DNA of 64,000 nucleotides, taken from the NCBI GenBank assembly GCA_964588685.1, contig CAZPQG010000005.1:5916-69915 (forward strand), written 5' to 3'. The translations under genes and the position numbers were made by a program. This document shows, in pieces, positions 3,668-28,644 of the stretch. Source of the stretch: an uncultured Pseudomonadales bacterium. GTDB taxonomy: Bacteria > Patescibacteriota > Microgenomatia > UBA1400 > PJMF01. The stretch's first letter is position 1. Every line of letters begins with the position of its first letter. The notes below the pieces were generated by a model. That model had not been told where the DNA came from. It saw nothing but the letters and a program-made list of their open reading frames with translations, and ran no database searches.

Positions 3668-4077
3668 TTAATTCTGATTATACCCCGCAGCTTGCTACGG
3701 GGAACAAATCAGAATGGGGTGTAGACTAATTAGGTAATAAAGTTTTTTGCTTATTATTAATTATATTATTTAAAGTTTATTCTAAATCTTTTGTTTATTT
3801 TCTGTGTTGCCTTCTCCTTAAGTGCTTGAGTGCAACACTAGTGTCGTCAGCGCCTTGAAAATAAAACAAAATCTTTATGAAATCAATGCAACTTTATTAC
3901 CCGATTAGTCTATTCAAGGGGGAATCCCCCTTGGTGTGACTGGGGGTTTAATACCCCTAGTCACAGGGGAGCAGGCTTTGTTCTTGCAAAGCAAGACAAA
4001 ACGCTGAGGGCCCTCCCTCAGAATTTATTATACTCTGATCATTGTTGAGCCCATAAAGAATCTATTTTAACAGGCGG
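3668..4077. repeat. Structured, hairpin-dense intergenic element (copy A, full length). A 23-bp module TTAATTCTGATTATACCCCGCAG sits at 3668-3690. A 34-bp module AAAACGCTGAGGGCCCTCCCTCAGAATTTATTA sits at 3997-4030, and TTAACAGGCGG follows at about 4067-4077. Both modules recur at 63845-63951.
   Basis: The same modules occur at both loci, seen directly in the sequence. Between the modules copy A carries at least four strong hairpins: CCAAGGGGGAATCCCCCTTGG, GTGACTGGGG..CCCCTAGTCAC, TTTGTTCTTGCAAAGCAAGACAAA and CTGAGGGCCCTCCCTCAG. The inverted repeat ATTCTGATT/AATCAGAAT lies at 3671-3716. Confidence 0.55.
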
Positions 4078-4227
4078 ACAAGTAGTTAATGTTATTGATT
4101 GTTATAGTTATAGAATTTATGTAATATTTTGCTGCGTCAATGTTTACTATGGCTGTTTCATTAACTGATTTTTGTTGTTATTATTAAAGATAATACTATT
4201 ACTATTTATTAACTTATATTACTGCCT

Positions 4228-14261: not shown

Positions 14262-14873
14262 ATGAAGATTGCGGTTTTTGGCGGAGCTTTTGACCCTCCG
14301 CATTTAGGTCATCTTCAAATTATCAAAACTTTGTTTCAACAAGAAGTTGCAGACGAAGTGTGGCTGGTGCCGACAGGTATTCACGACTTTGACAAACAGA
14401 TGCAGCCTGCTCGACATCGCATTACTATGCTGAAACTGTTAATTGAGGCTGCGCCTGACCGGGTGCAAGATAAAATTAAGATTAATCGCTGTGAGCTGGA
14501 ACGCGGCGGAGTCAGTCAAACTTATGATACTTTAGCCGAGCTAGCCGGCCGGCATCCACAACATCAGCTTTCTTGGGTCATGGGTTCTGATAATTTAGCT
14601 AAATTCCATGTGTGGGAAAATTATCAACGCTTGTTGACTGAATTTTTAGTTTATATTTATCCCCGTCTAGGTTTTGCTCTGCAGCCAATGTACACCGGCA
14701 TGATTCCTTTAACAGGCGTGGAGCGCATCAAGGTTTCTTCAACTAAGATAAAAGAACTATTGCAGTCGGCAGAAGTGGAGAATCCGGCTGCCAAACAAGT
14801 CAGGAACCAATTAAATGAATTATTACCGGCAGAAATTTTAAAACATATTAAAGATGAATCGCTTTATCAATAA
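14262..14873 (+). CDS. nadD: Nicotinate-nucleotide adenylyltransferase.
   Basis: IAVFGGAFDPPHLGHL is the HxGH nucleotidyltransferase motif typical of NadD. The protein is about 200 aa. Confidence 0.75.
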   Translation: MKIAVFGGAFDPPHLGHLQIIKTLFQQEVADEVWLVPTGIHDFDKQMQPARHRITMLKLLIEAAPDRVQDKIKINRCELERGGVSQTYDTLAELAGRHPQHQLSWVMGSDNLAKFHVWENYQRLLTEFLVYIYPRLGFALQPMYTGMIPLTGVERIKVSSTKIKELLQSAEVENPAAKQVRNQLNELLPAEILKHIKDESLYQ

Positions 14874-15460: not shown

Positions 15461-16846
15461 ATGACGAGGACGAAGAGTAGAGCTCGAAATTTTAGCGGTG
15501 CTGCATTTACTAATTTCCAGGCCTGCTTTAATTTTATGAAACTTGCTTTGGTTGTTCCTCATATTTTTATGAACCAGGAGCTGCTGCCTCGGGTTATTTT
15601 TTCGCCCGGACAGTTGGCTTTAACTTTAAGTCATGGTTTGGCTGAGCTGGGTCATGAAGTTACGCTTTTCACTCCCGGTTCAGTGGCTGATTTGCTTGAA
15701 AGCAATCATGTCCATAATGTAACTGCTGATTTAGCTTTTTTTGCAGCAGAGCTGGAGCAGCGGCAAGATGATTATCTGGCATTATTGAAAAAGCACCCCT
15801 TAACTTTTATTACTTTGTCGCGCCAAGTGCAGTCGGAATTAACAGCCCAAGCTTATCAGTTGGCTAACGAGGGTCGATTTGATCTGGTCCATGTGTGGTG
15901 TAATGAAGAAGAGCATGCTGTGATTAACGCCCGCTTTTGTCAAAAGCCGGTTGTTTTTAATCACCATGAGCCGTTTAACTTTTTAGTGCGCTATCGTTCT
16001 ATTTTTCCCAAATACGCTGCTTTAAATTGGATTTCTATCTCTTTTGCCCAGCGGCAAACTTTTGCGCAGCAGCAGGCTTTTACCGAACAAGCAAGAGAGG
16101 AGCGGCAGGCGGGCAGTTTGCAGCAGCGAAGCCAACAATTACCGGCAGTAAATTGGGTAGGCAATGTCTATCACGGCCTGAATCTTCAACAGTTTCAGTT
16201 TAATTCTCAACCTAAAGACTATTTATTGTATATGGGTCGAGTTATCCGGCCCAAGGGTGTACATTATGCTATTGTCTGCGCCAAACAGCTGCAAATGAAA
16301 TTGAAGATTGCCGGCAAACATTATGCCGGCCACAGTAAGGACCAGTATTGGCAGGAGTTTGTTGAACCGGAGTTGGACCATGATCTAATTGAGTATGTCG
16401 GCTATATTAAAGAGCAGTGTGTAAAGCAAAAATTATTGGGCCAGGCTCAGGTTTTACTGATGCCTTCAATTTGGCAGGAGCCGTTTGGCTTGGTGATGTT
16501 GGAAGCCATGGCTTGCGGCACACCGATCGCTGGTTTTGAAGAAGGCGCTGTGGCTGAAGTGGTGAAGCCTAAAAAAAGCGGCGCTTTAGCAGCCTATCAG
16601 GCGGAAGAAAAAGTATTTAAAAACGGTAAAGCAGTCAATAAAAGTTGGCAGCAGCTGCAGCAAGATTCTCAATTTCAAGAAAATGTAAAAGCATTGGCTC
16701 AGGCCGCAGCACAAGCCAAGCAAGTTGATCGAGCCGGCTGCAGAGCTTATTTTGCCGCCAATTTTTCCAGCCAACAGATGTGTCAAGGCTATGAGCAGAT
16801 TTATAAAAAGTTAATTGACAAGCAAAACAATAAAAATAGAAGTTAG
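15461..16846 (+). CDS. Glycosyltransferase, GT4/group-1 family. The true start is probably the ATG at 15536 (MKLALVVPHIF...).
   Basis: The C-terminal EPFGLVMLEAMACGTPIAG is a GT4-type EX7E motif region. The N-terminal LALVVPHIF resembles a GT-B Rossmann start. Confidence 0.65.
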   Translation: MTRTKSRARNFSGAAFTNFQACFNFMKLALVVPHIFMNQELLPRVIFSPGQLALTLSHGLAELGHEVTLFTPGSVADLLESNHVHNVTADLAFFAAELEQRQDDYLALLKKHPLTFITLSRQVQSELTAQAYQLANEGRFDLVHVWCNEEEHAVINARFCQKPVVFNHHEPFNFLVRYRSIFPKYAALNWISISFAQRQTFAQQQAFTEQAREERQAGSLQQRSQQLPAVNWVGNVYHGLNLQQFQFNSQPKDYLLYMGRVIRPKGVHYAIVCAKQLQMKLKIAGKHYAGHSKDQYWQEFVEPELDHDLIEYVGYIKEQCVKQKLLGQAQVLLMPSIWQEPFGLVMLEAMACGTPIAGFEEGAVAEVVKPKKSGALAAYQAEEKVFKNGKAVNKSWQQLQQDSQFQENVKALAQAAAQAKQVDRAGCRAYFAANFSSQQMCQGYEQIYKKLIDKQNNKNRS

Positions 16847-16944: not shown

Positions 16945-17769
16945 TCAAATCACCACCAAGTCTGCTTTAATATGCGGGTGAGATTCATAATTTACCAGCT
17001 TAAAATCATTAATCGTAAAGTCGTCAATATCTTTCACTTCAGGATTAACCCACAATAGGGGCCTTTTTTTTGGCTTTCTGTGAATTTGCTCCTCGGCTTG
17101 CCGTAAATGATTTTTATATAGATGCAAGTCGCCGATCGTATGCACAAACTCGCGCGCTTCCAAGCCTGTTACTTGAGCCACCATCAACAGTAATAGTGAA
17201 TATTGACTTATATTAAAGGGTAGACCTAAAAAAGCGTCAGCGCTGCGTTGATACAACTGCAAGCGTAATTTACCCTTAGTGACGTTGAATTGAAAAAAAG
17301 TGTGACACGGAGGCAGCCTCATTTCGTCAAGTTGAGCCGGATTCCAAGCTGAAACCAGCATAGCTTTGGAATAAGGCTGGGTTTTTATTTCTTGGATAAC
17401 ATTTTTAAGCTGATCAATATGGCCGCCCTCATAATCAGGCCATTTTCGCCATTGATAGCCGTAAACCGGTCCCAGCTCACCATCTTCTTCAGCAAAATCA
17501 TCCCAATAGTGAATTTTTTTCTCTTGCAGCGGTTTTATATTAGTGCTGCCTGATACAAACCATAATAGTTCATTGGTCATGGTCTTAAAAGGCATTTTTT
17601 TTGTGGTTAGAATGGGAAAACCACGCCGGAAGTCAAAACGCATTTGATAGCCAAAAGTGCTTTTGATGTCGTGTACACCGCGAGTTTTTTTACTTTTGCC
17701 GTTTTCCAAAATGTGTTTGAGGGCTTGTAGGTATTGCTGCATGGTGTTTAGTATAGCATTGTCAAACAA
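16945..17769 (-). CDS. thyA: Thymidylate synthase ThyA. The start is probably the internal Met, MQQYLQAL..., near 17742.
   Basis: RMLPPCHTFFQF active-site Cys. SAWNPAQLDEM and DLHLYKNH conserved blocks. Confidence 0.9.
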   Translation of the reverse strand: MFDNAILNTMQQYLQALKHILENGKSKKTRGVHDIKSTFGYQMRFDFRRGFPILTTKKMPFKTMTNELLWFVSGSTNIKPLQEKKIHYWDDFAEEDGELGPVYGYQWRKWPDYEGGHIDQLKNVIQEIKTQPYSKAMLVSAWNPAQLDEMRLPPCHTFFQFNVTKGKLRLQLYQRSADAFLGLPFNISQYSLLLLMVAQVTGLEAREFVHTIGDLHLYKNHLRQAEEQIHRKPKKRPLLWVNPEVKDIDDFTINDFKLVNYESHPHIKADLVVI

Positions 17770-17888: not shown

Positions 17889-18218
17889 ATGACAAAGGAG
17901 GCAAATATGCCAGCATTAGATCAAACAGGACCAAGAGGTCAGGGGCCAATGACCGGTCGCGGCTTAGGTGCTTGCAATGATGGCCCGGGTTTAGGTATGG
18001 GGCGAGGAAGAGGCTATGGACAGGGTTTCGGACGAGGTTTAGCTAGAGGTTGGGGTAGAGGTTACCCTTGTTATTTGATAGGGCGTCATTTTTTTGCGCC
18101 GGAAAATCAAATAGCTATGCTAGAGCAGCAAAAAGCTATGATGGTAGAAGAAAAAGAGATGCTTGAGCGGGAGATTACAGCTGTAGACGAAGAAATTGAA
18201 GCTTTGCAAGAAGAATAA
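17889..18218 (+). CDS. DUF5320-like small protein: a Gly/Arg-rich N-terminus followed by a coiled-coil.
   Basis: MPALDQTGPRGQGPMTGRGLGAC... then GRGRGYGQGFGRG, and a C-terminal heptad-repeat segment. The DUF5320 assignment comes from remembered family features. Confidence 0.5.
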   Translation: MTKEANMPALDQTGPRGQGPMTGRGLGACNDGPGLGMGRGRGYGQGFGRGLARGWGRGYPCYLIGRHFFAPENQIAMLEQQKAMMVEEKEMLEREITAVDEEIEALQEE

Positions 18219-18398: not shown

Positions 18399-18680
18399 AT
18401 GCCGAGACCTAAACTTTGTAAAAGAATTAGATTTGATCCTGAAGTATGCTATTTTAAACCTAAAGGGGTTCCTTTACGCGAATTGCAAGTGGTAGAGTTA
18501 TCTTTAGAAGAAGTTGAAGCTCTACGCTTAAAAAACATTAAAAATTTGTCACAAATAGAATGTGCTCAAAAAATGAACACTTCTCAGAGCACTGTGCAAA
18601 GAATTTTAAGCTCTGCTTATCAAAAAGTTTCACAAGCTTTAATTGAGGGCCAAGCCATTCGCATCAGTCAATCAGAGTAA
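18399..18680 (+). CDS. DUF134/UPF0251 family putative DNA-binding protein.
   Basis: MPRPKLCKRIRFDPEVCYFKPKGVPLRELQVVELSLEEVEALRL, plus a sigma-70 region-4-like HTH (QKMNTSQSTVQRIL). Confidence 0.6.
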   Translation: MPRPKLCKRIRFDPEVCYFKPKGVPLRELQVVELSLEEVEALRLKNIKNLSQIECAQKMNTSQSTVQRILSSAYQKVSQALIEGQAIRISQSE

Positions 18681-18801: not shown

Positions 18802-19776
18802 TTAATTTATTTTCTTTACGGTAATGCCTGCCTGCTCCAGCATTTTTTTACCGTAACCGGCTGAGTGGTCATGCTGATAAACTACTGCCTGCAAATTAGT
18901 TCTAGCTAGCATCCGAGCGCAATTAGGGCAGGGCAGCAGATTAATGTATAGGCAGGCGCTGTCCAACTTCACTCCCCGGCGCAAGGCTTTAAGCACGAGT
19001 TCAACTTCAGCATGATTGGTGTCGCAATATTGCAAATCTTGAGGAGGTGTTAAATGTTTTTCCTTGCTTGCGCCCTGATGAAGCATGTAAGTTTCATAAG
19101 GCACAACTTGATTATGGGCTGACAGTACAAAACGCTGTTTTTTAGCTAGTACCGCTGCAGTTTGAAAAGTATAGTCAAAAGAGAGTCGGCTTTCTAGTGT
19201 TGCCAGCTGCATCAGTTCTGATTCAGCATATTGCTGTTTGCGGGCAGGTTCAATGGCCGGCATATTTTTTTTAATTTGTTCTAAATAGCTTAAGGCTTCA
19301 GTCTTATCCACAAATGAGCTGACTAATTTATAAGGAAGCTGTCTCTTTTTTAATTGGCGAAATTCTGCGCGGTAATGAAAAGCTCGATGCCAAGAGCCGT
19401 TAATACCGATTACAGCGGCCCAATTGCCTTGTTGAATAAGGCGTGGCGCTTCAGCTTGAGGGTAGAGTAGAGTCTTAATTTGTTCGCCGTCGCTGTGTTT
19501 AATTTTGCCGCTCCTGTATTTCAGTTGCTTTAGAGCTGAAGTTAATGGCGCTAGACTTAAGGCCTTAAAAGGCAACGAGTTTTCTAAGCCGGCAATATAT
19601 TCTTCTTCAATACAACCCCAAATTAATTTTTTATCAGTATTGCTTAATAATTGGCGTGACAGCTGCCTGATACGTTCTCCTGAAATTTCTCGGGGGCCTA
19701 GAATTAAAATTGGCTGCTCTGTGGTCAGCTGTTTTAAGTCTTGAGGAGTGAGATCAGACCAAGAGTAGTGATTCAT
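18802..19776 (-). CDS. Fusion protein: an N-terminal domain of about 220 aa of unknown function, plus a C-terminal dCMP/cytidine deaminase zinc-binding domain.
   Basis: The C-terminus carries HAEVELVL...PCPNCARML, the CDA-fold HAE...PCxxC motif. The N-terminal 220 aa have no recognisable motif. Confidence 0.6.
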   Translation of the reverse strand: MNHYSWSDLTPQDLKQLTTEQPILILGPREISGERIRQLSRQLLSNTDKKLIWGCIEEEYIAGLENSLPFKALSLAPLTSALKQLKYRSGKIKHSDGEQIKTLLYPQAEAPRLIQQGNWAAVIGINGSWHRAFHYRAEFRQLKKRQLPYKLVSSFVDKTEALSYLEQIKKNMPAIEPARKQQYAESELMQLATLESRLSFDYTFQTAAVLAKKQRFVLSAHNQVVPYETYMLHQGASKEKHLTPPQDLQYCDTNHAEVELVLKALRRGVKLDSACLYINLLPCPNCARMLARTNLQAVVYQHDHSAGYGKKMLEQAGITVKKIN

Positions 19777-19840: not shown

Positions 19841-20416
19841 TTATGGTTGATATTTTTTTTCAAATCTTTTGAGAATTCTTTTAATTTTTTTGGCCTCCTT
19901 TTTGTAAAGAGCTGCGTTTTCCAACGGGGTATACCGCAGCCGCCGGTAATTCCATTGGCATAAATCAGGCTCATCAAAAGGAATAAACTGCATATGCAGA
20001 TGATCAGTAACTGTCATTTGGGCTTTCTCGCCTCCTTCACGAATTAAACTCCACATACCTTTGCAGCCATGCACTTGTTTGATAATTTTTTTGGCTAAGT
20101 AGGCAAACTTGCGCATTGTTTCCCATTGCTTTGGCGTGAGTTCTTTGGGGGATCGAATATGCCGGCGGGGGATAGCCATGAGTTGGCCGTCAATATAGGG
20201 ATACAAATTAATCGTCAATACTATTTCATTTTCCTCCAGCAGAATATATTTGTCTTTTAAGTCGCAGAAGACGCACTTGCCGGTGTTTTGCCAAATTTGA
20301 TCATAATGCCCCTTTGCCCGGGCATTTTTTTTATAGTTCTGACCCGTTTTTTGATGCGAGCTTTTAGAATTAGAAGAGCTGTGTGCCATGGCTTGATTAG
20401 ATGGGTTGTACGGCAT
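19841..20416 (-). CDS. HIT-superfamily protein, HxHxQ variant (GalT/Ap4A-phosphorylase-like branch), with a low-complexity N-terminal extension.
   Basis: CVFCDL (HIT N-terminal CxFC). ...GQLMAIPRRH. DHLHMQFIP carries HxHxQ instead of HxHxH. Confidence 0.5.
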   Translation of the reverse strand: MPYNPSNQAMAHSSSNSKSSHQKTGQNYKKNARAKGHYDQIWQNTGKCVFCDLKDKYILLEENEIVLTINLYPYIDGQLMAIPRRHIRSPKELTPKQWETMRKFAYLAKKIIKQVHGCKGMWSLIREGGEKAQMTVTDHLHMQFIPFDEPDLCQWNYRRLRYTPLENAALYKKEAKKIKRILKRFEKKYQP

Positions 20417-20461
20417 GACTTGCTAAAATAGAAAATAATGCCGATAATACGCTGCTAGTTG

Positions 20462-21040
20462 TTATTTAATTTCGGCGTCTTTTAACGGATTTTTCAAAGG
20501 ATTTTTTCCGTTTTTAAGATATTCTTTTAAAATTTCATTGAGTTGAGCGCTGACACCCTTTTTTAAAATTTTGGTAGTGGAAATAAAAGGGGATTGCCGG
20601 TCAACCAATTTTACCTGGCCGCCGTTTCTGACAACTGTGTTATATTCCGGTGATTCTTTATAGCCTTTATTCCATTCCTCCCTAACAGTGACATAAAAAT
20701 CAGGTTTTAGTTGTTCTAAAGTCGGCTGATTACTCATTTGAGGGACAATAGTGACTAAATCAACAAAGCGGACGTAGCTCAGCATTTCAGCTCGGATTTT
20801 TTCATCTAAAATTGGTCGGTTAGGGCCTTTTAAAGTGCTAATGGTTTGATTGGAACTGATGCCGACCACTAAGACGTCAGCCAGTTTTTTAGCCTCATGC
20901 AGGTACCTTACTTGCCCGACGTGCAGCATATCCCAGGCGCCGGCAGTATAGACAATAGTTTTGCCTTTGGCTCTGATTTTTTCTCCGGCTTTTTTAATTT
21001 GTTGAGGTGCGATTAAGCGCTTTTTCCAGATGAAGGACAT
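20462..21040 (-). CDS. Cytidylyltransferase-superfamily sugar/alcohol-phosphate nucleotidyltransferase, closest in pattern to RfaE domain II or TagD.
   Basis: TIVYTAGAWDMLHVGQVRYLHEAKKLADVLVVGISSNQTISTLKG aligns with RfaE-II [45 protein letters not shown]. C-terminal GGQVKLVD...STTKILKK resembles GGEV..L....STTNIIKK. Confidence 0.65.
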   Translation of the reverse strand: MSFIWKKRLIAPQQIKKAGEKIRAKGKTIVYTAGAWDMLHVGQVRYLHEAKKLADVLVVGISSNQTISTLKGPNRPILDEKIRAEMLSYVRFVDLVTIVPQMSNQPTLEQLKPDFYVTVREEWNKGYKESPEYNTVVRNGGQVKLVDRQSPFISTTKILKKGVSAQLNEILKEYLKNGKNPLKNPLKDAEIK

Positions 21041-21095
21041 AGTTTAAGCTTACTTTTAATAATTTTTAAGTTTGTTTTAGTCGTATTAAAAAACT

Positions 21096-21128
21096 TTACC
21101 CGCACAAGCGAGCGGGCAGCAGACAGGA
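21096..21128 (-). terminator. Weak candidate terminator between the APH-like kinase gene and the nucleotidyltransferase gene.
   Basis: On the minus strand: CCCGC-TCGCTTGT-GCGGG, followed by TAAAGTTTTTT. Confidence 0.3.
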
Positions 21129-21168
21129 TTAGCTCCAACCTATTTATACCAGTTTTGATAAAGATAAA

Positions 21169-22368
21169 TCAACTGCTGTTATTGCTAGTTGACAATAAAT
21201 TCTGTTTTAACAACCAATTTTTAGTACGCACAAAATGTTCGTTTTGAGGCAAAAATTGATAGGGATTGTGCCGTAAAAATTTATAAAAATCATAGAATAG
21301 AAAAAAAGTTGTTAAAGACTGCAACAATTTAGGTTCCGGTAGTTGCTGCTGGCCGCGCTTGGCATAACCGGAGTTGAGAAAGTATTTTTTAACTTGGAGT
21401 TCAGTTTTGTATTGGCAGTCAATCAGTAAAAAGGCCAGTGTTCTGGCCACGTCGAGTACTCTTGGTCCTAGAGCTGCTTTTTCAAAATCTAAAATACCGC
21501 TCACAGTCAGTAATTCTTGGCTTGATTGATTGTCATCCGGGCTTGATTGATTATGATTTGTTTGATTTTTTTGCCTAGTTTTTTGAGGATCTAAAATAAA
21601 TTTTTTGGCAGCCGGATTCTTTTGTACAAAAGTGTATGGCTTATTTTGAAATAAAATATTGCCGCGCACAAAATCTAAATGTAAAATTTGTTGATTTGGT
21701 AAATTTGTAAGATTTTTTAAAACTTGTTGCAAATAAGGAAAGACGTTAAGTTTTGGGTTAAGTTTTAGTTTTTCTTTAAGTGCTTTTTGCACCCCTTCTT
21801 TATAAAAATATGTATTCATTACGTTTAATTTTTCCTCTAAAATCAATCTTTCTCGTTTTATTAAATTGAACTGCTTTGGCTTAAATGCTGCTAAATCGTG
21901 ATGCAGCTGACCCAAAACTTGGCCCAACAGTTTAATGTGCTTCATAGTATAATTGTCCCAGTTAATAGTAGAGCCGGGTAGGTAGTTATACAAGCAGCAA
22001 TAGTATTTGCTGTTGGAATGAGTAATTTGAAGGATGGATTTTAGCCGGCCGGCTTTTTTGTTATTAGCAGCCTTATGAGCGGCTGTGCCGGGAGTGTTAG
22101 TTAATCCAGAGTAGGTTTGGCGGGTCGGCCAGCCTTGCCGGGCTAAGTAATTTGAGACAAGATTGGCTGTTTTAATTTTAGGCAGGATATCAGGTTCATT
22201 TTTGTAAAAAATTAAGGCCAATTTTTTCTCATCCTTTAGTTCCAAAGGAATAATATTGTTGCGATATCCGGTTTGTGGTTGTAAAATTCGTATAGCTTTT
22301 GTCTCTAAGCCATAAGCAGCCAGCACTTTTAAGATTAACGCTTGGTTATGATAAGGCTTGTTAAGCAT
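21169..22368 (-). CDS. Phosphotransferase of the APH/choline-kinase/homoserine-kinase-II fold. Substrate unknown.
   Basis: HLDFVRGNILF is the HxDxxxxN catalytic-loop motif. ILDFEKAALGP is a DFG-like DxE/D segment. The protein is 399 aa. Confidence 0.55.
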   Translation of the reverse strand: MLNKPYHNQALILKVLAAYGLETKAIRILQPQTGYRNNIIPLELKDEKKLALIFYKNEPDILPKIKTANLVSNYLARQGWPTRQTYSGLTNTPGTAAHKAANNKKAGRLKSILQITHSNSKYYCCLYNYLPGSTINWDNYTMKHIKLLGQVLGQLHHDLAAFKPKQFNLIKRERLILEEKLNVMNTYFYKEGVQKALKEKLKLNPKLNVFPYLQQVLKNLTNLPNQQILHLDFVRGNILFQNKPYTFVQKNPAAKKFILDPQKTRQKNQTNHNQSSPDDNQSSQELLTVSGILDFEKAALGPRVLDVARTLAFLLIDCQYKTELQVKKYFLNSGYAKRGQQQLPEPKLLQSLTTFFLFYDFYKFLRHNPYQFLPQNEHFVRTKNWLLKQNLLSTSNNSS

Positions 22369-22417
22369 GTGATTAAAGTTAAGACTTTGAGTCTATCTTT
22401 ATTACTTTTATAATTTT

Positions 22418-23218
22418 ATGCGTATTACTGCTATTAAAACTCCGCTTGTTAAACCTCATGAAGATTTGCAGCAGCTAATTGCTGATAATATTGAGCAGAT
22501 CAGTGAAAAATCGGTTTTAGTTATTACTTCAAAAATAATTAGTTATGCTCAAAATCGATTAGTGCCTATTAAGACCGGCACCAGGCAAGAAAAGCATCAA
22601 CTGGTTCAACAGGAAGCTGATCAGTACCTTGCTCACACCTATTCCCAATATGATATCATTTTAGCAATTAAAAATGGTCATTTAACAGCTAATGCCGGAA
22701 TAGATCAATCAAATGCTGACGGCCATTATGTTTTATGGCCTGAAAATTTACAAGAGACTATCAATCAACTTTGGCATTTTGCGCGCCGGCATTATCAAGT
22801 GCAGGAACTGGGCATCATTGTTACTGACAGTCGCACCTGGCCTTTAAGGTGGGGGGTGGTAGGCACTTGTTTGGCTCACTGTGGTTTTAAACAGCTGCAT
22901 GATTATCGAGGCAAAAAAGATTTATTTGGCCGTAAAATTAAATCAGTGCAGCTCAATATTGCAGAAGCAATTGCCTCAGCAGCCGTACTGGCTATGGGTG
23001 AGGTGGCAGAGCAAACACCGCTGGCTCTAGTCAATCAAATCAACCACATTGCATTTCAGGATCGAGTGCCCACTGAACAAGAATTAAAAGATCTTAAAAT
23101 TAAGTTGGCGGATGATATGTATGGTCCGTTTTTAAAAAGTGTTCCGTGGCAGAAAAACAAATCCAAGCATAAACCTGACCAAGAAGTTGGGTTAGGGCAG
23201 AAAAATAAGTCTATTTAA
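22418..23218 (+). CDS. CofE-like (F420-0:gamma-glutamyl ligase family) protein.
   Basis: VLVITSKIISYAQNRL, IIVTDSRTWPLRWGVVGTCLAHCG and AEAIASAAVLAMGE resemble conserved CofE-family blocks. Confidence 0.5.
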   Translation: MRITAIKTPLVKPHEDLQQLIADNIEQISEKSVLVITSKIISYAQNRLVPIKTGTRQEKHQLVQQEADQYLAHTYSQYDIILAIKNGHLTANAGIDQSNADGHYVLWPENLQETINQLWHFARRHYQVQELGIIVTDSRTWPLRWGVVGTCLAHCGFKQLHDYRGKKDLFGRKIKSVQLNIAEAIASAAVLAMGEVAEQTPLALVNQINHIAFQDRVPTEQELKDLKIKLADDMYGPFLKSVPWQKNKSKHKPDQEVGLGQKNKSI

Positions 23219-24321: not shown

Positions 24322-25638
24322 CTATGGAGCTGTTGAAAACAGATCAGCGGCTGCATTGACCAGTTCGGGGTTGCTGAAGTATTGATTCAGCTGTGCCTGC
24401 CAATCCGGATCTTTTATATGTATCATTGGTTCCACACCATTGCCTTCAATCGGTGCGCCGTCCTCGCGCAAAGTTAAGTGATGCACCAAAAATACAGAGT
24501 ATTTTTCTTGATCTGTGAGCTGATTTTCCAGGGGAAAAACTTTTTCGATAGTACCCCAGCCCATGGTAGGAGTGCCGACTAGCACGCCGACATTATATTT
24601 TTTAAGCACACTAGCCATGACTTCAGCCGTCGATTGAGTTTGATCGTCTATAAGAATAATTATTTTCTTGTAACGAACTAAACTGGGCAGCCAGCCGGTG
24701 CGAGTTTTGTAATCTACAATCTGATCTTGTTGTATGAATTGATAAGCGTATCGATTATTGCCGATAAACGGTCCTAAAAAATAGGGCAGGCCATCAATAG
24801 CGCCGCCAATATTACCCCTTAGGTCTAAGATTAAGCTGTCCAGTCCGTCGCCTCTGTCATCTACTTTTTCAGTAACTTCGGCTAATTCTTGGACAGTGGT
24901 TGGCGAAAATTGCTTGATTCTTAAATAAAAAATTTGATCGGACAGCAGACGCCATTCCATGGTGGGGTTAACGCCTGTTTCATCATATCGCGAGCGGGCA
25001 GCTTCATCGCCTAAAGTTTGACGGGCAGCTTTGACTTGGGCTAACTGTTCTTGTGCTTCAGGACTGTCATCTTGGGTTAGTTCCTGGCTTTTTTGTTCAT
25101 AAGCTTGCACTATTTCTTCTTGCGAGGATTCCGAATCTACTTCCAGAGCTTGATAATGGTCGGTTTCAGGATCAATATTGCTTACTTTTTCCACTAGATC
25201 TTGTTCTAATTGTTGTGAATAGAGCCGGCTGCGGCTAAACGGTTCAAGGTTAGCTAAGACCATATCAGCTAGCTGCACAGCAAACTCGCGCTTGGTTTCA
25301 TCATTGGAATATTGTTTGAGTAGTTCTAAAATTTTATCGTCTAATTCATTATAAGTTTGAACAGTATTACCCAGAGGTTGGGCTGTTAATTTTTCAATGG
25401 CTAAAACATGTATTTTAACTAATTGCTGCTCACTGACTTTATTCCAATAATTATCTAAAATAATGCTGCGAATTTCGCGTAAAAATGCCAGCTGCGGATG
25501 AGCTGTTTCTTGTTCACTGTCGGAAAATTGATTAAGCAGCGGTAGTTGATCTTGATGATTGGCAATCAATAGCCCACCGCCCAACCCAATTAAGAGTGCC
25601 ATTGCGATAGATAAAAGCAGTTTGTAAATTTTTTTCAT
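24322..25638 (-). CDS. S41-family (tail-specific/C-terminal processing) peptidase-like protein, membrane anchored.
   Basis: N-terminal TM segment. LILDLRGNIGGAIDG matches the S41 DLRxNxGG motif. TQSTAEVMASVLK resembles the SxSASE Ser region. Confidence 0.55.
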   Translation of the reverse strand: MKKIYKLLLSIAMALLIGLGGGLLIANHQDQLPLLNQFSDSEQETAHPQLAFLREIRSIILDNYWNKVSEQQLVKIHVLAIEKLTAQPLGNTVQTYNELDDKILELLKQYSNDETKREFAVQLADMVLANLEPFSRSRLYSQQLEQDLVEKVSNIDPETDHYQALEVDSESSQEEIVQAYEQKSQELTQDDSPEAQEQLAQVKAARQTLGDEAARSRYDETGVNPTMEWRLLSDQIFYLRIKQFSPTTVQELAEVTEKVDDRGDGLDSLILDLRGNIGGAIDGLPYFLGPFIGNNRYAYQFIQQDQIVDYKTRTGWLPSLVRYKKIIILIDDQTQSTAEVMASVLKKYNVGVLVGTPTMGWGTIEKVFPLENQLTDQEKYSVFLVHHLTLREDGAPIEGNGVEPMIHIKDPDWQAQLNQYFSNPELVNAAADLFSTAP

Positions 25639-25848: not shown

Positions 25849-26745
25849 ATGAAAAAAGAAAGAGGAATAAATCCAAAGCAAAATAATCATGTTGAGAAAT
25901 CAGCAGAAGCCCCAGAGTGCTTAGGGGAAGAAAAAAATCTTGAACAGTTAGCTGCAGATATTTTAGAAATGTGCGATCCATTATTAGGAGAAGAGTTATT
26001 AAAAAAGGGTACACGAAACTTTATTTTTTACAAAATGGAATGTTTAGAAGAAGTAATTAATCGTGAAAAACAATCTGAGAAAAAATGCCGAGAAATTATT
26101 GAAAACATATATGATTTATTTAGCTTTGTGATTAAAAGCTTGATAACCCTGATAGATGATTCGGAAAATGGGCACGACTTTGTTTTTGTTGAAGATCCGG
26201 CGCTTTATAATAATTCGAAACCGAAAATTAATGATTTATTAAAAGAATTAAGTGGTAAGTTGAAAAATTCAAATGAATTATCAGAAGAACTAGAATTATT
26301 GGTGGAAAATAAGCTGGAACCATTAAGCAAATTGAGCGAAGCATTGGAAGCTATGCACAGTTTGGCAGCAATGGTTGAAGAAGCAGAAATAACAATTCAA
26401 AATATAGTTCTAATCAATGAAGAGCTCAGCTTAAATCAAGATTGTCAAACATTAGAAGAATTAGTTGGAGAAGCATATAATTTGCTTAATGAATCTCAAA
26501 TAATCGGTCAAAATTTAGCAGATTTTGAGGAAGCAAAAACAAAACTTTGGACAACTAGAACCCAAACTTTATTTGAGTTAAAAAAAGAAATTAAGATGTC
26601 TGAACCTCCAACTGACGATCTTAAAAGAACAGTTCAAAAAATAATTAGTAGATATCCGCAAAAAGATTGTAATTATGGGGGAAACGGCTTCATGGTTTTA
26701 GGGGATTATTTTCCCTCTAAAATTTTGAGATATATGATCTCTTAG
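25849..26745 (+). CDS. Hypothetical protein, strongly AT-rich and compositionally atypical relative to its flanks.
   Basis: 298 aa, E/K/L/N-rich, with no recognisable motif. The local GC content is visibly lower than the surrounding genes. Confidence 0.35.
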   Translation: MKKERGINPKQNNHVEKSAEAPECLGEEKNLEQLAADILEMCDPLLGEELLKKGTRNFIFYKMECLEEVINREKQSEKKCREIIENIYDLFSFVIKSLITLIDDSENGHDFVFVEDPALYNNSKPKINDLLKELSGKLKNSNELSEELELLVENKLEPLSKLSEALEAMHSLAAMVEEAEITIQNIVLINEELSLNQDCQTLEELVGEAYNLLNESQIIGQNLADFEEAKTKLWTTRTQTLFELKKEIKMSEPPTDDLKRTVQKIISRYPQKDCNYGGNGFMVLGDYFPSKILRYMIS

Positions 26746-26807: not shown

Positions 26808-27347
26808 ATGCAAGTATTTTTAATTGTGGCTGTCAGCCTAGATGGCTTTATTGCTCAAACAATTGAGCAACCGTCAACTGACTGGACCAGTGCGGAAGAT
26901 AAACAGCATTTTCATCAAAAAACTAAGCAGGCGGGTATAATTGTAATGGGCAAAACAACTTTTGATACCATTGGCAAACCTTTGCCTAAGCGTCTTAATA
27001 TTATCTACAGTTATAAGACTAAGCAGGATTTAACGGCAAACTATAATTTAACAGCTGATCAGACAGCAGAAGATAGGCTGAGAGTCACATCTTTGCCGCC
27101 GGCTCAATTGGTGCAGCAGCTTAAAAAAGAAGGCAGACAGCAACTGGCTATTTGCGGCGGTAGTTCGATTTATACGCAATTTATCCAAAGCGAGGTAGTT
27201 GACAAAATGTTTTTAACAGTTGAACCTGTTATTTTTGGCGACGGCATTAAACTTTTCAATCAACCTCTAGAGCAAAAGTTAACCTTAGTCAACAGCCGGC
27301 GCCTAAATGAAGCCGGGACTTTGTTGTTGGAGTATGATTGCTGCTAG
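26808..27347 (+). CDS. Dihydrofolate reductase family protein (DHFR/RibD-C fold).
   Basis: LIVAVSLDGFIAQ...IIVMGKTTFDTIGKPLPKRLNIIYS matches the DHFR N-terminal pattern (IAALA.D..IG....MPW......GR.T.ESIGRPLPGR.NI.LS). Confidence 0.6.
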   Translation: MQVFLIVAVSLDGFIAQTIEQPSTDWTSAEDKQHFHQKTKQAGIIVMGKTTFDTIGKPLPKRLNIIYSYKTKQDLTANYNLTADQTAEDRLRVTSLPPAQLVQQLKKEGRQQLAICGGSSIYTQFIQSEVVDKMFLTVEPVIFGDGIKLFNQPLEQKLTLVNSRRLNEAGTLLLEYDCC

Positions 27348-27464: not shown

Positions 27465-27920
27465 ATGAGTCAGGCATCAAAAAATTCTATAACAGTAACA
27501 GTTAAACGTTTCGATAAAAGCCTGCCTTTGCCGCAATATCAGAGCCAAGGGGCGGCGGCATTGGATTTAGCAGCCCGCTGCTCAAAAACCATTCCGCCTC
27601 AAACTGTGAAGCTAGTGCCGCTGAATATTGCGCTGCAGCCGCCGCCCAATTATTGGGTGTTGATGTCTGCGCGCAGTAGTTTATACAAAAAAGGCTTGAT
27701 GCTGGCCAATGGTATTGGAGTAGGAGATTCTGATTATCGAGGCGACAATGATGAATATCAAGCAGCTTTATTTAATTTTACTGACCGGCCGGTTAAAGTT
27801 GAAAAAGGAGAACGGCTCACTCAAATGATGCTTTTATCCAGAAAGAAAATCATCTGGCAAGAGCGCGATAATTTTAAGACGGATGATAGAGGTGGTTTTG
27901 GCTCCACCGGGCAAAGTTAA
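27465..27920 (+). CDS. dut: dUTP diphosphatase.
   Basis: GVGDSDYRGD is the dUTPase motif 3. QGAAALDL is motif 1. RLTQMML is motif 4. Confidence 0.85.
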   Translation: MSQASKNSITVTVKRFDKSLPLPQYQSQGAAALDLAARCSKTIPPQTVKLVPLNIALQPPPNYWVLMSARSSLYKKGLMLANGIGVGDSDYRGDNDEYQAALFNFTDRPVKVEKGERLTQMMLLSRKKIIWQERDNFKTDDRGGFGSTGQS

Positions 27921-27999: not shown

Positions 28000-28644
28000 A
28001 TGGGAAAATCATACCCCGGTTATTTGATTACTTTTGAGGGCGGTGAAGGAGGAGGTAAGACCACTCAATCTGTCCGCATCCGCAACAACTTGACCGAAGC
28101 CGGACATGATGTGGTAGTATTAAGAGAACCCGGTGGAACAGTTATCAGCGAGCAAATTCGTCAAGTTGTGTTGTCGCCGAACAATACAGGGATGGCTTTT
28201 ACTACAGAAGTATTGCTTTTTCAGGCAGCTCGAGCTCAGATTTACCGCGAAATTGTTTTGCCGTCCTTAAAAGCCGGTAAAATTGTTTTGATGGATCGTT
28301 CACGCGACAGCAGCGTAGTTTACCAAGGAATGGTGCGCGGCTTTGGACGGGATTTAATTGAGCAGCTTAATAATCTCTCCACTAAAAATATTTACCCTGA
28401 TTTAACTATTTTGCTTGATTTGCCAATAAAAATAGGTTTGGCAAGAAAAAATGATGCCGGGGAAATGAATCGTTTGGAAATGGAAGACAAAAATTTCCAC
28501 CAACAAGTACGCGAAGCTTATTTACAACTAGCAAAAGAGAATGAGCAGCAGCGTTGGATAATAGTTGATGCGCAGCAGAGCATGGAGGAAGTTGAGGCAG
28601 AAATTTGGCAGACAGTAGCAGAGGAATTAAACAGCTCAGATTAA
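28000..28644 (+). CDS. tmk: Thymidylate kinase.
   Basis: ITFEGGEGGGKTTQ (P-loop). DRSRDSSVVYQG (DR(Y/F) motif and lid). Confidence 0.9.
   Translation: MGKSYPGYLITFEGGEGGGKTTQSVRIRNNLTEAGHDVVVLREPGGTVISEQIRQVVLSPNNTGMAFTTEVLLFQAARAQIYREIVLPSLKAGKIVLMDRSRDSSVVYQGMVRGFGRDLIEQLNNLSTKNIYPDLTILLDLPIKIGLARKNDAGEMNRLEMEDKNFHQQVREAYLQLAKENEQQRWIIVDAQQSMEEVEAEIWQTVAEELNSSD

What the first reader, a model, noticed from the sequence alone, without database searches (positions are those of the whole stretch)
19841..23218. Four-gene module: HIT(HxHxQ) nucleotidyltransferase-like, RfaE-II/TagD-like cytidylyltransferase, APH-fold kinase and CofE-like ligase
Three consecutive minus-strand genes and one divergent plus-strand gene each carry a recognisable catalytic signature for small-molecule activation. 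These are a GalT/Ap4A-phosphorylase-type HIT protein (CxFC, HxHxQ), an HxGH-class cytidylyltransferase closely patterned on ADP-heptose synthase domain II, a choline/aminoglycoside-kinase-fold phosphotransferase (HxDxxxxN, DFE), and a CofE-family amide ligase. Kinase plus nucleotidyltransferase is the logic of Kennedy-type CDP-alcohol or NDP-sugar formation. A CofE-like ligase adds an acyl or amino acid step. Together with the GT4 glycosyltransferase and the GT-C glycosyltransferase elsewhere in the window, this points to a pathway making an activated head group or sugar for envelope decoration. The pathway is not identifiable from sequence alone.
Basis: inference. Interest (0 to 1): 0.55.

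Follow-up and report, generated by a model that had tools for sequence, protein, structure and literature searches.

The report
Unknown enzyme trio in thymidylate operon
Three of the four flagged genes (a small-molecule kinase, an unusual nucleotidyltransferase and a HIT enzyme) are the front of an operon conserved across Patescibacteria that continues into a two-domain dCMP-type deaminase and sits beside thymidylate synthase, DHFR and dTMP kinase, so they most likely feed DNA-precursor (dTMP) synthesis by an undescribed route rather than decorate the cell envelope.

Summary
All four ORFs exist at the stated coordinates and their family assignments hold. The module is drawn wrongly. In 83 loci from different Patescibacteria species, the kinase is accompanied by the nucleotidyltransferase (NT, 77), HIT (77), a ~320-aa deaminase (69), ThyA (66), a GT4 glycosyltransferase (61), DHFR (71) and Tmk (26-38). 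The CofE-like gene accompanies it in only 9. The order kinase>NT>HIT>deaminase is fixed and often has 4-nt overlaps. HIT is fused to the deaminase in two architectures and to a NUDIX domain in a third. The NT carries HxGQ rather than HxGH in 72 of 77 sequences. The window's HxHxQ is a clade variant of HxHxH. The deaminase has a lineage-restricted N-terminal nucleotidyltransferase-fold domain. The CofE-like protein best matches TIGR04132, the FolC2-type "folate gamma-glutamate ligase". My best reading, which is inferred, is that the kinase makes X-P, the NT makes (d)CDP-X, HIT releases (d)CMP, the deaminase makes dUMP, and ThyA/DHFR/Tmk follow. The envelope-decoration reading is weakly supported. 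I found no published description.

The parts
21169..22368 (-). APH-fold small-molecule kinase; first cistron of the conserved core operon.
20462..21040 (-). Cytidylyltransferase-like (HUP-class) nucleotidyltransferase with a variant HxGQ motif; second cistron.
   Evidence: PF01467 43.8 bits; TIGR02199 109 bits, below its cut-off of 181.5. H40-V-G-Q43 lies at nt 20912-20923, and HxGQ occurs in 72 of 77 orthologs. R148-x4-I-S-T-T156 lies at nt 20573-20599. The family profile against PDB gives ECT 87 bits over two domains, HldC 67.8, CCT 50.8 and TagD 41. It accompanies the kinase in 77 of 83 loci. Median identity to orthologs is 53.5%, nearly that of ThyA.
19841..20416 (-). Single-domain HIT protein with an N-terminal CxFC pair; third cistron.
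   Evidence: PF11969 and PF01230 are above cut-off. C48-C51 lies at nt 20264-20275 and H139-L-H-M-Q143 at nt 19988-20002. CVFC occurs in 73 of 78 orthologs; HxHxH is the majority form and HxHxQ occurs in 12. The profile's best solved relatives are 6af2 (46 bits) and the Rv2613c Ap4A phosphorylase (44 bits); a GalT-like protein scores only 21.8. HIT is fused to the deaminase in L013, L024, L026, L033 and L059. It is fused to NUDIX in L084-L086.
18802..19776 (-). It has an N-terminal nucleotidyltransferase-fold domain (aa 1 to about 180, no HxGH) and a C-terminal T4-type dCMP deaminase domain.
16945..17769 (-). Thymidylate synthase ThyA; canonical.
   Evidence: PF00303 373 bits; NF002497 387 bits, above its cut-off of 327. 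The PPCH and PFNI motifs are conserved. It lies within 10 kb of the kinase in 66 of 83 loci, in at least two different placements.
15461..16846 (+). GT4 glycosyltransferase, convergent with ThyA. It is co-conserved with the cluster, and its role in it is unresolved.
   Evidence: PF00534 and PF13692. Only generic GT4 hits appear in NCBIfam. It is present in 61 of 83 loci, always on the strand opposite ThyA (60 of 60), and within 600 nt of ThyA in 43.
22418..23218 (+). CofE-like gamma-glutamyl ligase, most likely a FolC2-type folate (poly)glutamate ligase. It is divergent from the kinase and is a clade-specific addition.
   Evidence: TIGR04132 251 bits (cut-off 350), against CofE TIGR01916 at 119 bits; PF01996 129 bits. 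It accompanies the kinase in only 9 of 83 loci, all in the window's own clade, plus L085. A RimK-type ligase lies next to it or to DHFR in L001 and L086. The Chlamydia CofE homolog CT611 complements an E. coli folC mutant (PMC1971073).
26808..27347 (+). Dihydrofolate reductase (RibD_C/DHFR-type).
   Evidence: PF01872 73.8 bits and PF00186 61.6 bits. The best NCBIfam hits are DHFRs, all below cut-off. A DHFR of this type or of canonical FolA type lies near the kinase in 71 of 83 loci, in at least five placements.
27465..27920 (+). dUTPase.
   Evidence: PF00692 72 bits. TIGR00576 96.7 bits, just below its cut-off of 102.55. It is near the kinase in only 7 of 83 loci.
28000..28644 (+). dTMP kinase Tmk.
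   Evidence: PF02223 155 bits. TIGR00041 174 bits, above its cut-off of 83. A Tmk or long Tmk fusion is found in 26-38 of 83 loci, often directly downstream of deaminase-DHFR.

Best explanation
What it is. The kinase, NT and HIT genes are the first three cistrons of an ancient Patescibacteria operon: kinase > NT > HIT > two-domain dCMP-type deaminase. This operon is kept next to ThyA, DHFR and Tmk. I read it as a pyrimidine deoxynucleotide module that supplies dUMP and dTMP. It is not an envelope pathway. I put this general assignment at about 0.75.

Proposed mechanism (inferred; about 0.3 for this exact chemistry).
1. The APH-fold kinase phosphorylates a small hydroxyl compound X, an amino-alcohol or a sugar, to X-P.
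2. The HxGQ nucleotidyltransferase condenses X-P with (d)CTP to give (d)CDP-X plus PPi.
3. The HIT enzyme cleaves the pyrophosphate link through a nucleotidyl-His intermediate and releases (d)CMP. In some lineages HIT is fused to a NUDIX domain or to the deaminase itself.
4. The deaminase converts dCMP to dUMP. Its N-terminal nucleotide-binding-fold domain probably binds a regulatory or substrate nucleotide.
5. ThyA makes dTMP, DHFR regenerates tetrahydrofolate, and Tmk makes dTDP.

The gene order follows this reaction order.

The CofE-like gene is a separate addition limited to the window's clade. It is a FolC2-type folate gamma-glutamyl ligase serving the ThyA/DHFR cofactor cycle (about 0.6).

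Shown: the conservation, gene order, fusions, folds and motifs. Inferred: every substrate.
For: Co-conservation. Across 83 species-level loci the kinase is accompanied by NT 77, HIT 77, deaminase 69, ThyA 66, GT4 61, DHFR 71 and CofE 9.

Operon structure. Called genes overlap by 4 nt or more at NT/HIT, HIT/deaminase and deaminase/DHFR in L002, L003, L085 and L086.

Linkage survives rearrangement. ThyA lies downstream in 39 loci and elsewhere (mostly upstream and divergent) in about 27. Two non-orthologous DHFR types occupy at least five placements.

Rosetta-stone fusions.
- HIT plus long deaminase in L013.
- HIT plus short CDA-type deaminase in L024, L026, L033 and L059, directly followed by ThyA.
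- HIT plus NUDIX in L084-L086.

Enzyme features.
- The NT belongs to the family that forms N-PP-X from NTP plus X-P. Its relatives are ECT, CCT, TagD and HldC.
- The kinase has intact catalytic motifs, and its nearest folds are small-molecule kinases including ethanolamine and choline kinases.
- NT and HIT are nearly as conserved as ThyA: 53.5% and 52.4% against 57% median identity.

Precedent. ECT accepts dCTP (PMC2784872). dCDP-choline and dCDP-ethanolamine occur naturally (PMC10505902).

CofE-like gene. TIGR04132 is its best match, and CT611/FolC2 has been shown to complement folC.
Against: - No substrate is demonstrated for any of the three enzymes.
- A carrier cycle whose net reaction is dCTP to dCMP plus PPi is less parsimonious than a single dCTPase. 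L085 also carries MazG-like and DCD genes nearby.
- The HIT's closest solved relatives are phosphorylases (Rv2613c type). Phosphorolysis would give an NDP rather than an NMP.
- The NT's best single-domain relative, HldC, uses ATP and a sugar-1-phosphate.
- The effect of Gln in place of the second His of HxGH is unknown.
- CDA-fold enzymes can also deaminate dCTP, as in CDADC1 and the chlorovirus bi-DCD. The order of the HIT and deaminase steps is therefore not fixed.
- In the Dojkabacteria locus L084 the kinase-NT pair has no deaminase or ThyA within 7 kb.
- The co-conserved GT4 gene is left unexplained.
Confidence: 0.4

Rival explanations
1. The kinase and NT activate a head group or sugar, Kennedy- or HldC-type, giving CDP-X or NDP-sugar. 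The co-conserved GT4 or another transferase then uses it for envelope decoration. HIT edits or exchanges the nucleotide-linked intermediate, as NahK plus GalT do in the LNB/GNB pathway. Proximity to thymidylate genes reflects nucleotide recycling or co-regulation only.
For: - The kinase-NT pair is the tightest in the cluster and persists alone in L084.
- The NT is closest to HldC and ECT.
- GT4 is present in 61 of 83 loci.
- The window copy of HIT has CxFC plus HxHxQ, as in the GalT branch.
Against: - HIT is fused to a cytosine-nucleotide deaminase or to NUDIX, never to a transferase.
- The operon reads through into deaminase, DHFR and Tmk with overlapping stop and start codons.
- GT4 is always convergent with ThyA and lies outside the kinase transcription unit.
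- No CDP-alcohol, LicD or TagF transferase is conserved nearby or found in the annotated part of the window.
- HxHxQ is not the family state, and the GalT-like profile match is only 21.8 bits.
- No GmhA or GmhB heptose genes are nearby.
Confidence: 0.2
2. This is a nucleoside-salvage reading. The APH-fold kinase is a non-canonical (deoxy)cytidine or deoxyuridine kinase that produces dCMP or dUMP directly for the deaminase and ThyA. NT and HIT interconvert or buffer the resulting nucleotide, for example as a 5'-5' dinucleotide in the manner of NMN and NAD.
For: - The operon context is purely pyrimidine deoxynucleotide metabolism.
- Patescibacteria are generally held to depend on nucleotide salvage (own knowledge).
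- NT-fold enzymes such as NadD adenylylate nucleoside 5'-phosphates, and a bona fide NadD is encoded in the window at 14262-14873.
- HIT and NUDIX enzymes classically cleave 5'-5' dinucleotides (own knowledge).
Against: - I know of no nucleoside kinase with the APH fold.
- The nearest folds all act on amino-alcohols, sugars or antibiotics.
- The NT-plus-HIT steps would be a futile loop.
- The NT is closer to ECT, HldC and CCT than to NadD.
Confidence: 0.12
3. This is a dinucleoside-polyphosphate or alarmone reading. The HIT (Ap4A-phosphorylase-like), its NUDIX partner and the NT make and break an Np(n)N-type or other nucleotide signal. That signal tunes dNTP and thymidylate synthesis or replication, with the deaminase N-domain as its sensor.
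For: - The best solved relatives of the HIT are Ap4A phosphorylases, and the only NCBIfam hit is ATP adenylyltransferase.
- Both HIT and NUDIX families contain Ap(n)A-degrading enzymes (own knowledge), and the two are fused in L084-L086.
- The deaminase carries an extra, conserved nucleotide-binding-fold domain.
Against: - The NCBIfam score of 38 bits is far below the cut-off of 290.
- A direct HIT-deaminase fusion followed by ThyA looks like metabolic channelling rather than signalling.
- The role of the kinase is unexplained.
Confidence: 0.1
4. There is no shared function. The kinase, NT and HIT are unrelated housekeeping enzymes that sit beside thymidylate genes only through inherited synteny in slowly rearranging, reduced genomes.
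For: - Ribosomal-operon synteny (SecE-NusG-L11-L1-L10-L7/12) is also conserved in many of the same Saccharimonadia loci.
- Each protein on its own gets only generic annotations.
Against: - The core is shared between Microgenomates-like and Saccharimonadia genomes whose flanks differ.
- ThyA-GT4 and DHFR have moved around the core repeatedly yet stay adjacent, and DHFR has even been replaced by a non-orthologous type.
- Translational overlaps are common.
- There are three independent HIT fusion architectures.
Confidence: 0.08

Closest known systems
Kennedy-type activation: choline/ethanolamine kinase plus CTP:phospho-alcohol cytidylyltransferase (CCT, ECT, TagD).
   Same: It pairs an APH-fold kinase with a PF01467 nucleotidyltransferase. 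The NT profile matches human ECT (87 bits over two domains), CCT (50.8) and TagD (41). It has an R-x4-[ILV]-STT motif resembling RTEGISTT. ECT can use dCTP.
   Different: The second His of HxGH is Gln in 72 of 77 sequences. No CDP-alcohol phosphotransferase partner is present. The kinase is not detectably related by sequence to choline or ethanolamine kinases. The operon continues into HIT, deaminase and thymidylate genes.
[quoted passage not shown]
   Same: It is the best single-domain sequence relative, at 67.8 bits by profile. The match includes the N-terminal helix and the KGxxRPI segment.
   Different: The score is below the equivalog cut-off (109 against 181.5). The motif is HxGQ. There is no (F/L)xxGRSTT motif (PMC11573728). 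No GmhA, PfkB-type heptose kinase or GmhB lies nearby. The partner kinase has the APH fold.
Ap4A phosphorylase-type HIT proteins (M. tuberculosis Rv2613c, PDB 3ano; 6af2) and the GalT branch of the HIT superfamily.
   Same: It is a single HIT domain of about 190 aa. These are its best solved relatives, at 44-46 bits by profile. The window copy has the GalT-like CxxC plus HxHxQ.
   Different: The NCBIfam score is 38 bits against a cut-off of 290. Most family members have HxHxH. The protein is not a two-lobed GalT. It is uniquely fused to deaminase or NUDIX domains.
T4-type / ComEB-type dCMP deaminase.
   Different: It has an additional conserved N-terminal nucleotidyltransferase-fold domain of about 180 aa. 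That domain lacks HxGH, is restricted to this family (51 clusters) and is not detectably related to the neighbouring NT. ComEB TIGR02571 scores 42 bits against a cut-off of 219.
FolC2 (Chlamydia CT611) / TIGR04132 'putative folate metabolism gamma-glutamate ligase', the CofE-like COG1478 family.
   Same: It is the best-scoring model (251 bits). The gene lies in a ThyA/DHFR neighbourhood, which is the context that defines the family. A RimK-type ligase lies next door in relatives.
   Different: The score is below the TIGR04132 cut-off of 350. The activity is untested. The gene is present only in the window's clade and in L085, so it is not part of the conserved core.
LNB/GNB pathway pair NahK (APH-fold anomeric kinase) plus GalT-type HIT uridylyltransferase (own knowledge).
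   Different: The HIT here is a single small domain closer to the Hint and Ap4A-phosphorylase types. An extra HUP-class NT is present. The context is nucleotide metabolism, not sugar catabolism.

Membership tests
PF01467 cytidylyltransferase-like (HUP class I nucleotidyltransferases) | Pfam score above the gathering threshold. | tested here: met
   43.8 bits against a cut-off of 21.
PF01467 cytidylyltransferase-like (HUP class I nucleotidyltransferases) | (T/H)xGH signature with both histidines. | tested here: not met
   The window has H40-V-G-Q43. HxGQ occurs in 72 of 77 orthologs and HxGH in only 5.
PF01467 cytidylyltransferase-like (HUP class I nucleotidyltransferases) | C-terminal RTxGISTT-type phosphate-binding motif. 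| tested here: met
   R148-Q-S-P-F-I-S-T-T156. R, Q, S and STT are invariant, and the spacing is one residue longer than in TagD and CCT.
HldC / HldE domain II (TIGR02199, heptose-1-P adenylyltransferase) | Equivalog score at or above the cut-off. | tested here: not met
   109.2 bits against 181.5.
HldC / HldE domain II (TIGR02199, heptose-1-P adenylyltransferase) | Heptose pathway partners (GmhA, PfkB-type kinase, GmhB) in the neighbourhood. | tested here: not met
   None is among the recurrent families in 83 loci. The partner kinase has the APH fold.
HldC / HldE domain II (TIGR02199, heptose-1-P adenylyltransferase) | ADP-heptose-forming activity. | not testable with these tools
   This needs an enzyme assay.
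HIT superfamily, GalT / Ap4A-phosphorylase (transferase) branch | HIT-fold domain with a His-x-His core. | tested here: met
   PF11969 32.5 bits and PF01230 24.8 bits, both above cut-off. H139 and H141 are invariant.
HIT superfamily, GalT / Ap4A-phosphorylase (transferase) branch | HxHxQ as the family signature. | tested here: not met
   Q occurs in only 12 of 78 orthologs. HxHxH is the majority form.
HIT superfamily, GalT / Ap4A-phosphorylase (transferase) branch | ATP adenylyltransferase equivalog score (NF052622). | tested here: not met
   38.4 bits against a cut-off of 290.
HIT superfamily, GalT / Ap4A-phosphorylase (transferase) branch | Phosphorolytic or transferase chemistry rather than hydrolysis. 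| not testable with these tools
   This needs an assay with Pi against water as the acceptor.
APH / choline-kinase-fold phosphotransferases (PF01636) | Pfam threshold, the catalytic HxDxxxxN loop and the DFE/DFG metal motif. | tested here: met
Homoserine kinase type II (NF003558) | Equivalog score. | tested here: not met
   30.6 bits against a cut-off of 271. The similarity is structural only, 16% identity.
dCMP deaminase (CDA fold; T4 Cd / ComEB) | CDA-fold domain with HAE and PCxxC Zn ligands. | tested here: met
dCMP deaminase (CDA fold; T4 Cd / ComEB) | ComEB equivalog score and single-domain architecture. | tested here: not met
   TIGR02571 scores 42.1 bits against 219.45. An extra conserved N-terminal domain of about 180 aa is present.
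dCMP deaminase (CDA fold; T4 Cd / ComEB) | Substrate is dCMP rather than dCTP, cytidine or (d)CDP-X. | not testable with these tools
   CDA-fold dCTP deaminases exist. This needs an assay.
CofE (F420-0:gamma-glutamyl ligase, TIGR01916) | Equivalog score. | tested here: not met
   119.1 bits against 180.65. The Pfam F420_ligase domain is met at 129 bits.
TIGR04132 / FolC2-type folate gamma-glutamate ligase | Model score at or above the cut-off. | tested here: not met
   251.3 bits against 350. It is nevertheless by far the best-scoring model.
TIGR04132 / FolC2-type folate gamma-glutamate ligase | Genomic association with DHFR and thymidylate synthase. | tested here: met
   ThyA lies 4.6 kb upstream and DHFR 3.6 kb downstream in the window. 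The same holds in L001, L004-L011 and L085.
TIGR04132 / FolC2-type folate gamma-glutamate ligase | Folate glutamylation activity, and absence of F420 biosynthesis from the genome. | not tested
   The whole genome is not available. A complementation precedent exists only for Chlamydia CT611.
Kennedy-type CDP-alcohol pathway | Kinase plus cytidylyltransferase plus a CDP-alcohol or phospho-head-group transferase. | tested here: not met
   The first two are present. No transferase of that kind is conserved in 83 loci or found in the annotated part of the window.

The most novel reading that the evidence does not exclude
Patescibacteria make the dCMP or dUMP needed for thymidylate synthesis by a carrier-mediated shunt not described in any organism. 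An APH-fold kinase primes a small carrier X-P. An HxGQ cytidylyltransferase loads it with dCMP from dCTP. A HIT (or HIT-NUDIX) enzyme unloads dCMP directly into a two-domain deaminase, possibly as a multi-enzyme complex. The lineage-specific N-terminal domain of the deaminase senses or binds the dCDP-X intermediate. This would be a new, essential and lineage-wide step of DNA-precursor metabolism.
Probability: 0.25. Interest if true: 0.75.

Novelty: new variant of a known kind. Interest (0 to 1): 0.6.

Why it matters
Patescibacteria (CPR) have tiny genomes in which almost every conserved operon is likely to matter. Here three enzymes of unknown substrate are nearly as conserved as thymidylate synthase itself and are physically fused to the dUMP-producing deaminase in several lineages. 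If they form a new route from cytosine nucleotides to dUMP, that would fill a gap in how these organisms balance DNA precursors. It would also address where dCMP comes from in organisms that depend on dCMP deaminase. It would define new activities for an HxGQ nucleotidyltransferase subfamily, a sequence-isolated APH-kinase subfamily and a CxFC-HIT subfamily. It would also give lineage-specific targets and markers for Saccharibacteria. In addition, the analysis corrects generic annotations in the public sources ("RfaE domain II", "RdoA Ser/Thr kinase", "homoserine kinase type II").

Tried and rejected
1. Deaminase N-domain as a diverged duplicate of the adjacent NT, a possible heterodimer partner. 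hhalign probability was below 1%. Rejected at sequence level; the fold resemblance alone remains.
2. Anti-phage defence system. PADLOC gave nothing except a weak deaminase-motif hit.
3. ADP-heptose pathway. The NT is below the equivalog cut-off, there are no Gmh genes, and the STT motif is of the wrong type.
4. GalT-type HxHxQ as the diagnostic feature. It is only a clade variant.
5. DNA hypermodification, with ThyA acting as a hydroxymethylase. ThyA passes the thymidylate synthase equivalog model, and DHFR is co-conserved.
6. Riboflavin (RibD-like) reading of the deaminase plus RibD_C-type reductase. T4 dCMP deaminase is the better structural match. Canonical FolA replaces the reductase in about 23 loci. 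ThyA, Tmk and Dut lie in the context.
7. Phage homologs as functional clues. The NT has only generic HldC-like hits at 31-37% identity, and the kinase has none.
8. Sequence and profile searches of the kinase against PDB sequences. No hits.
9. Literature searches for the cluster in Saccharibacteria or CPR. Nothing found.
10. Promoter and terminator scan. Counts were not above the shuffled controls, so no operon boundaries were drawn from it.
11. Foldseek against afdb50. The library was unavailable.

Full report
**1. Observation**

- HIT, 19841-20416(-)
- cytidylyltransferase-like NT, 20462-21040(-)
- APH-fold kinase, 21169-22368(-)
- CofE-like protein, 22418-23218(+)

Profile searches confirm each family. 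The motifs quoted for the kinase (HxDxxxxN, DFE) and the HIT (CxFC, HxHxQ) are present.

Two details are wrong or misleading:
- The NT reads H-V-G-Q, not HxGH.
- The best model for the ligase is not CofE proper. It is TIGR04132, "putative folate metabolism gamma-glutamate ligase", at 251 bits against 119 for CofE.

Homolog names place the organism in the Patescibacteria: Microgenomates, Pacebacteria, Woesebacteria and Saccharimonadales.

**2. Surroundings**

The block lies inside a thymidylate and folate neighbourhood.
- Upstream: ThyA at 16945-17769 and a 324-aa dCMP-deaminase-like gene at 18802-19776.
- Downstream: DHFR at 26808-27347, dUTPase at 27465-27920 and Tmk at 28000-28644.

The rest of the annotated window holds cell-shape, replication and translation genes. 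It also holds PyrE-like and PyrF genes. It contains no CDP-alcohol, LicD or TagF-type transferase.

**3. Co-conservation**

I built a kinase alignment (A1) and fetched 80 loci from species-representative genomes. Three more came from metagenome contigs. I scanned their six-frame ORFs with the window proteins. Counts within 10 kb of the kinase, out of 83 loci:

| Gene | Loci |
|---|---|
| NT | 77 |
| HIT | 77 |
| long deaminase | 69 |
| ThyA | 66 |
| GT4 | 61 |
| DHFR (RibD_C-like) | 56 by this scan; 48 by clustering |
| DHFR (canonical FolA), extra loci | 23 |
| any DHFR | 71 |
| Tmk | 26-38 |
| CofE-like | 9 |

The DHFR and Tmk figures also draw. Most absences are at contig ends.

- The order kinase>NT>HIT>deaminase on one strand is constant.
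- In called genes, NT/HIT, HIT/deaminase and deaminase/DHFR overlap by 4 nt or more.
- An unbiased all-against-all clustering found no other recurrent partner.
- Starting instead from NT homologs recovered the same arrangement in two further lineages. In a Dojkabacteria genome only the kinase-NT pair is adjacent.
- ThyA-GT4 and DHFR have been shuffled around the core many times and still stay adjacent. DHFR has even been replaced by a non-orthologous type. This argues for selection on proximity rather than frozen synteny.

The real module is therefore kinase-NT-HIT-deaminase plus ThyA, DHFR and Tmk, with GT4 also linked. The CofE-like gene is a clade-specific neighbour.

**4. Anatomy of the parts**

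Kinase.
- All catalytic residues are invariant.
- The AF2 model has pLDDT 88.8.
- No solved structure is detectable by sequence, even with a profile.

NT.
- It is very conserved, at 55-80% identity across classes. Median identity is 53.5%, against 57% for ThyA.
- HxGQ occurs in 72 of 77 sequences, with an R-x4-[ILV]-STT motif.
- Its profile matches ECT, HldC, CCT and TagD.
- It is below the HldC equivalog cut-off.
- It lacks the STTR5 motif of promiscuous heptose nucleotidyltransferases.

HIT.
- CVFC is near-invariant. The triad is HxHxH in most members and HxHxQ in 12 of 78, mainly the window's clade.
- Its best solved relatives are Ap4A-phosphorylase-type HITs. GalT-like proteins are marginal.

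Deaminase.
- The AF2 model has pLDDT 93.5.
- The N-domain carries conserved R29/S32/R35 where HxGH would be.
- It is found in only 51 of 1.84 billion representative clusters, essentially always N-terminal to this deaminase.
- It is not detectably homologous to the neighbouring NT.

**5. Fusions**

HIT is fused to three different partners:
- the long deaminase in L013
- a short CDA-type deaminase in L024, L026, L033 and L059, where ThyA follows immediately
- a NUDIX domain in L084-L086

NUDIX and HIT enzymes both cleave pyrophosphate links of nucleoside-diphosphate-X compounds (established knowledge of both superfamilies). These fusions are the strongest evidence that the HIT substrate or product is a cytosine or uracil nucleotide on the path to dUMP.

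**6. Mechanism**

NT-fold enzymes of this family make N-PP-X from NTP plus X-P. HIT enzymes release NMP from NMP-X through a histidyl-NMP intermediate. A dCMP-type deaminase feeds ThyA.

Reading the operon in gene order gives this proposal:
1. X is phosphorylated to X-P by the kinase.
2. X-P plus (d)CTP gives (d)CDP-X through the NT.
3. HIT, with or without NUDIX, releases (d)CMP.
4. The deaminase makes dUMP.
5. ThyA makes dTMP while DHFR recycles the folate.
6. Tmk makes dTDP.

The use of dCTP by ECT-type enzymes and the natural occurrence of dCDP-choline and dCDP-ethanolamine are documented.

Weaknesses:
- No substrate is known.
- The cycle is less economical than a single dCTPase.
- The HIT's nearest relatives are phosphorylases.
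- The deaminase could act before HIT, because CDA-fold dCTP deaminases exist.
- GT4 is unexplained.
- In L084 the kinase-NT pair stands apart from the rest.

I rate the assignment to pyrimidine deoxynucleotide metabolism at about 0.75. I rate the specific (d)CDP-X shunt at about 0.3.

**7. CofE-like gene**

- Its best model is TIGR04132.
- It lies between ThyA and DHFR.
- Relatives have a RimK-type ligase or DHFR next to it.
- A Chlamydia CofE homolog (CT611, FolC2) complements an E. coli folC mutant (PMC1971073).

It is most simply a folate gamma-glutamyl ligase supporting the ThyA/DHFR cycle.

**8. Rivals**

| Reading | Confidence |
|---|---|
| Envelope head-group or NDP-sugar activation with GT4 as consumer | 0.2 |
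| Non-canonical nucleoside kinase salvage | 0.12 |
| Np(n)N or signal-nucleotide turnover | 0.1 |
| Synteny without shared function | 0.08 |

Each is set out with its evidence in the structured fields.

**9. Novelty and verdict**

I found no description of this cluster in the searchable literature. Public annotations of its members are generic. Every protein belongs to a known superfamily. The following features appear undescribed in what I could search:
- the operon composition
- the HxGQ NT subfamily
- the sequence-isolated kinase subfamily
- the CxFC-HIT fusions
- the two-domain deaminase

I class it as a new variant of a known kind: a thymidylate gene cluster with an added three-enzyme front end. 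Interest is 0.6.

Noticed in passing
L054:14365-16197, and about 38 other loci; also L003:12368-14173: In many Saccharimonadia the Tmk gene downstream of the operon is extended, or followed, by a conserved region of about 400 aa with no Pfam match. The long ORFs are 500-800 aa.
   Followed up: partly
window 15461-16846 (+) with 16945-17769 (-): The GT4 glycosyltransferase and ThyA form a convergent pair. It is kept intact in 60 of 60 loci that have both genes, wherever the pair sits relative to the kinase operon. The reason is unknown.
   Followed up: partly
window 17889-18218 (+) and 18399-18680 (+): A DUF5320 gene and a DUF134 (HTH/sigma-70 region 4-like) gene are inserted between the deaminase and ThyA. 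This occurs only in the window's clade (4 of 83 loci). They may be a local regulator pair.
   Followed up: no
window 24322-25638 (-): An S41 C-terminal-processing peptidase carries an internal DnaJ (J-domain) segment at aa 160-219. This is an unusual combination. It is conserved in the window's clade (L001, L004-L010) and partly in L085.
   Followed up: no
L001:1736-3931: A 731-aa protein combines a xanthine-PRTase-like domain with a C-terminal NUDIX domain. It sits between DHFR and the S41 peptidase in the closest relative. The window has an unrelated 298-aa ORF (25849-26745, no family hits) at that position.
   Followed up: no
L001:6415-7221; L086:5343-6014: A RimK-type ATP-grasp ligase lies next to the CofE-like gene or to DHFR in relatives. 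It is absent from the window. This hints at alpha- as well as gamma-glutamylation of a folate-like cofactor.
   Followed up: no
L026:3728-4252 and about 22 other loci, compared with window 26808-27347: Two non-orthologous DHFR types serve the same cluster. One is a RibD_C-like type, as in the window. The other is a canonical FolA type (PF00186, 171 bits) placed right upstream of the kinase.
   Followed up: partly
window 21097-21118 (-): A G+C-rich hairpin followed by a T-run lies in the 128-nt gap between the kinase and the NT. It may be an internal attenuator or terminator. The overall scan was not above shuffled controls.
   Followed up: no
window 39107-39760 (+) and 39793-40623 (+): The window encodes PyrE-like phosphoribosyltransferase and PyrF (OMP decarboxylase) genes, the last two steps of UMP synthesis. 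The lineage is usually described as lacking de novo nucleotide synthesis.
   Followed up: no
L004-L011 record titles: Several MAGs carrying the closest relatives of this locus are titled 'uncultured Pseudomonadales bacterium'. Their gene content and their homologs are Patescibacteria-like, so the taxonomy labels are probably wrong.
   Followed up: no
L085:1028-1933 and 3765-4415: In one lineage the cluster is also flanked by DCD (dCTP deaminase-like), MazG-like, two HAD hydrolases and a Vut_1 family transporter. This forms an extended nucleotide and vitamin salvage island.
   Followed up: no
window 1367-3619 (-): A 750-aa Wzy_C (O-antigen ligase-like) membrane protein has C-terminal TPR repeats. 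It is not linked to the cluster in other genomes.
   Followed up: no
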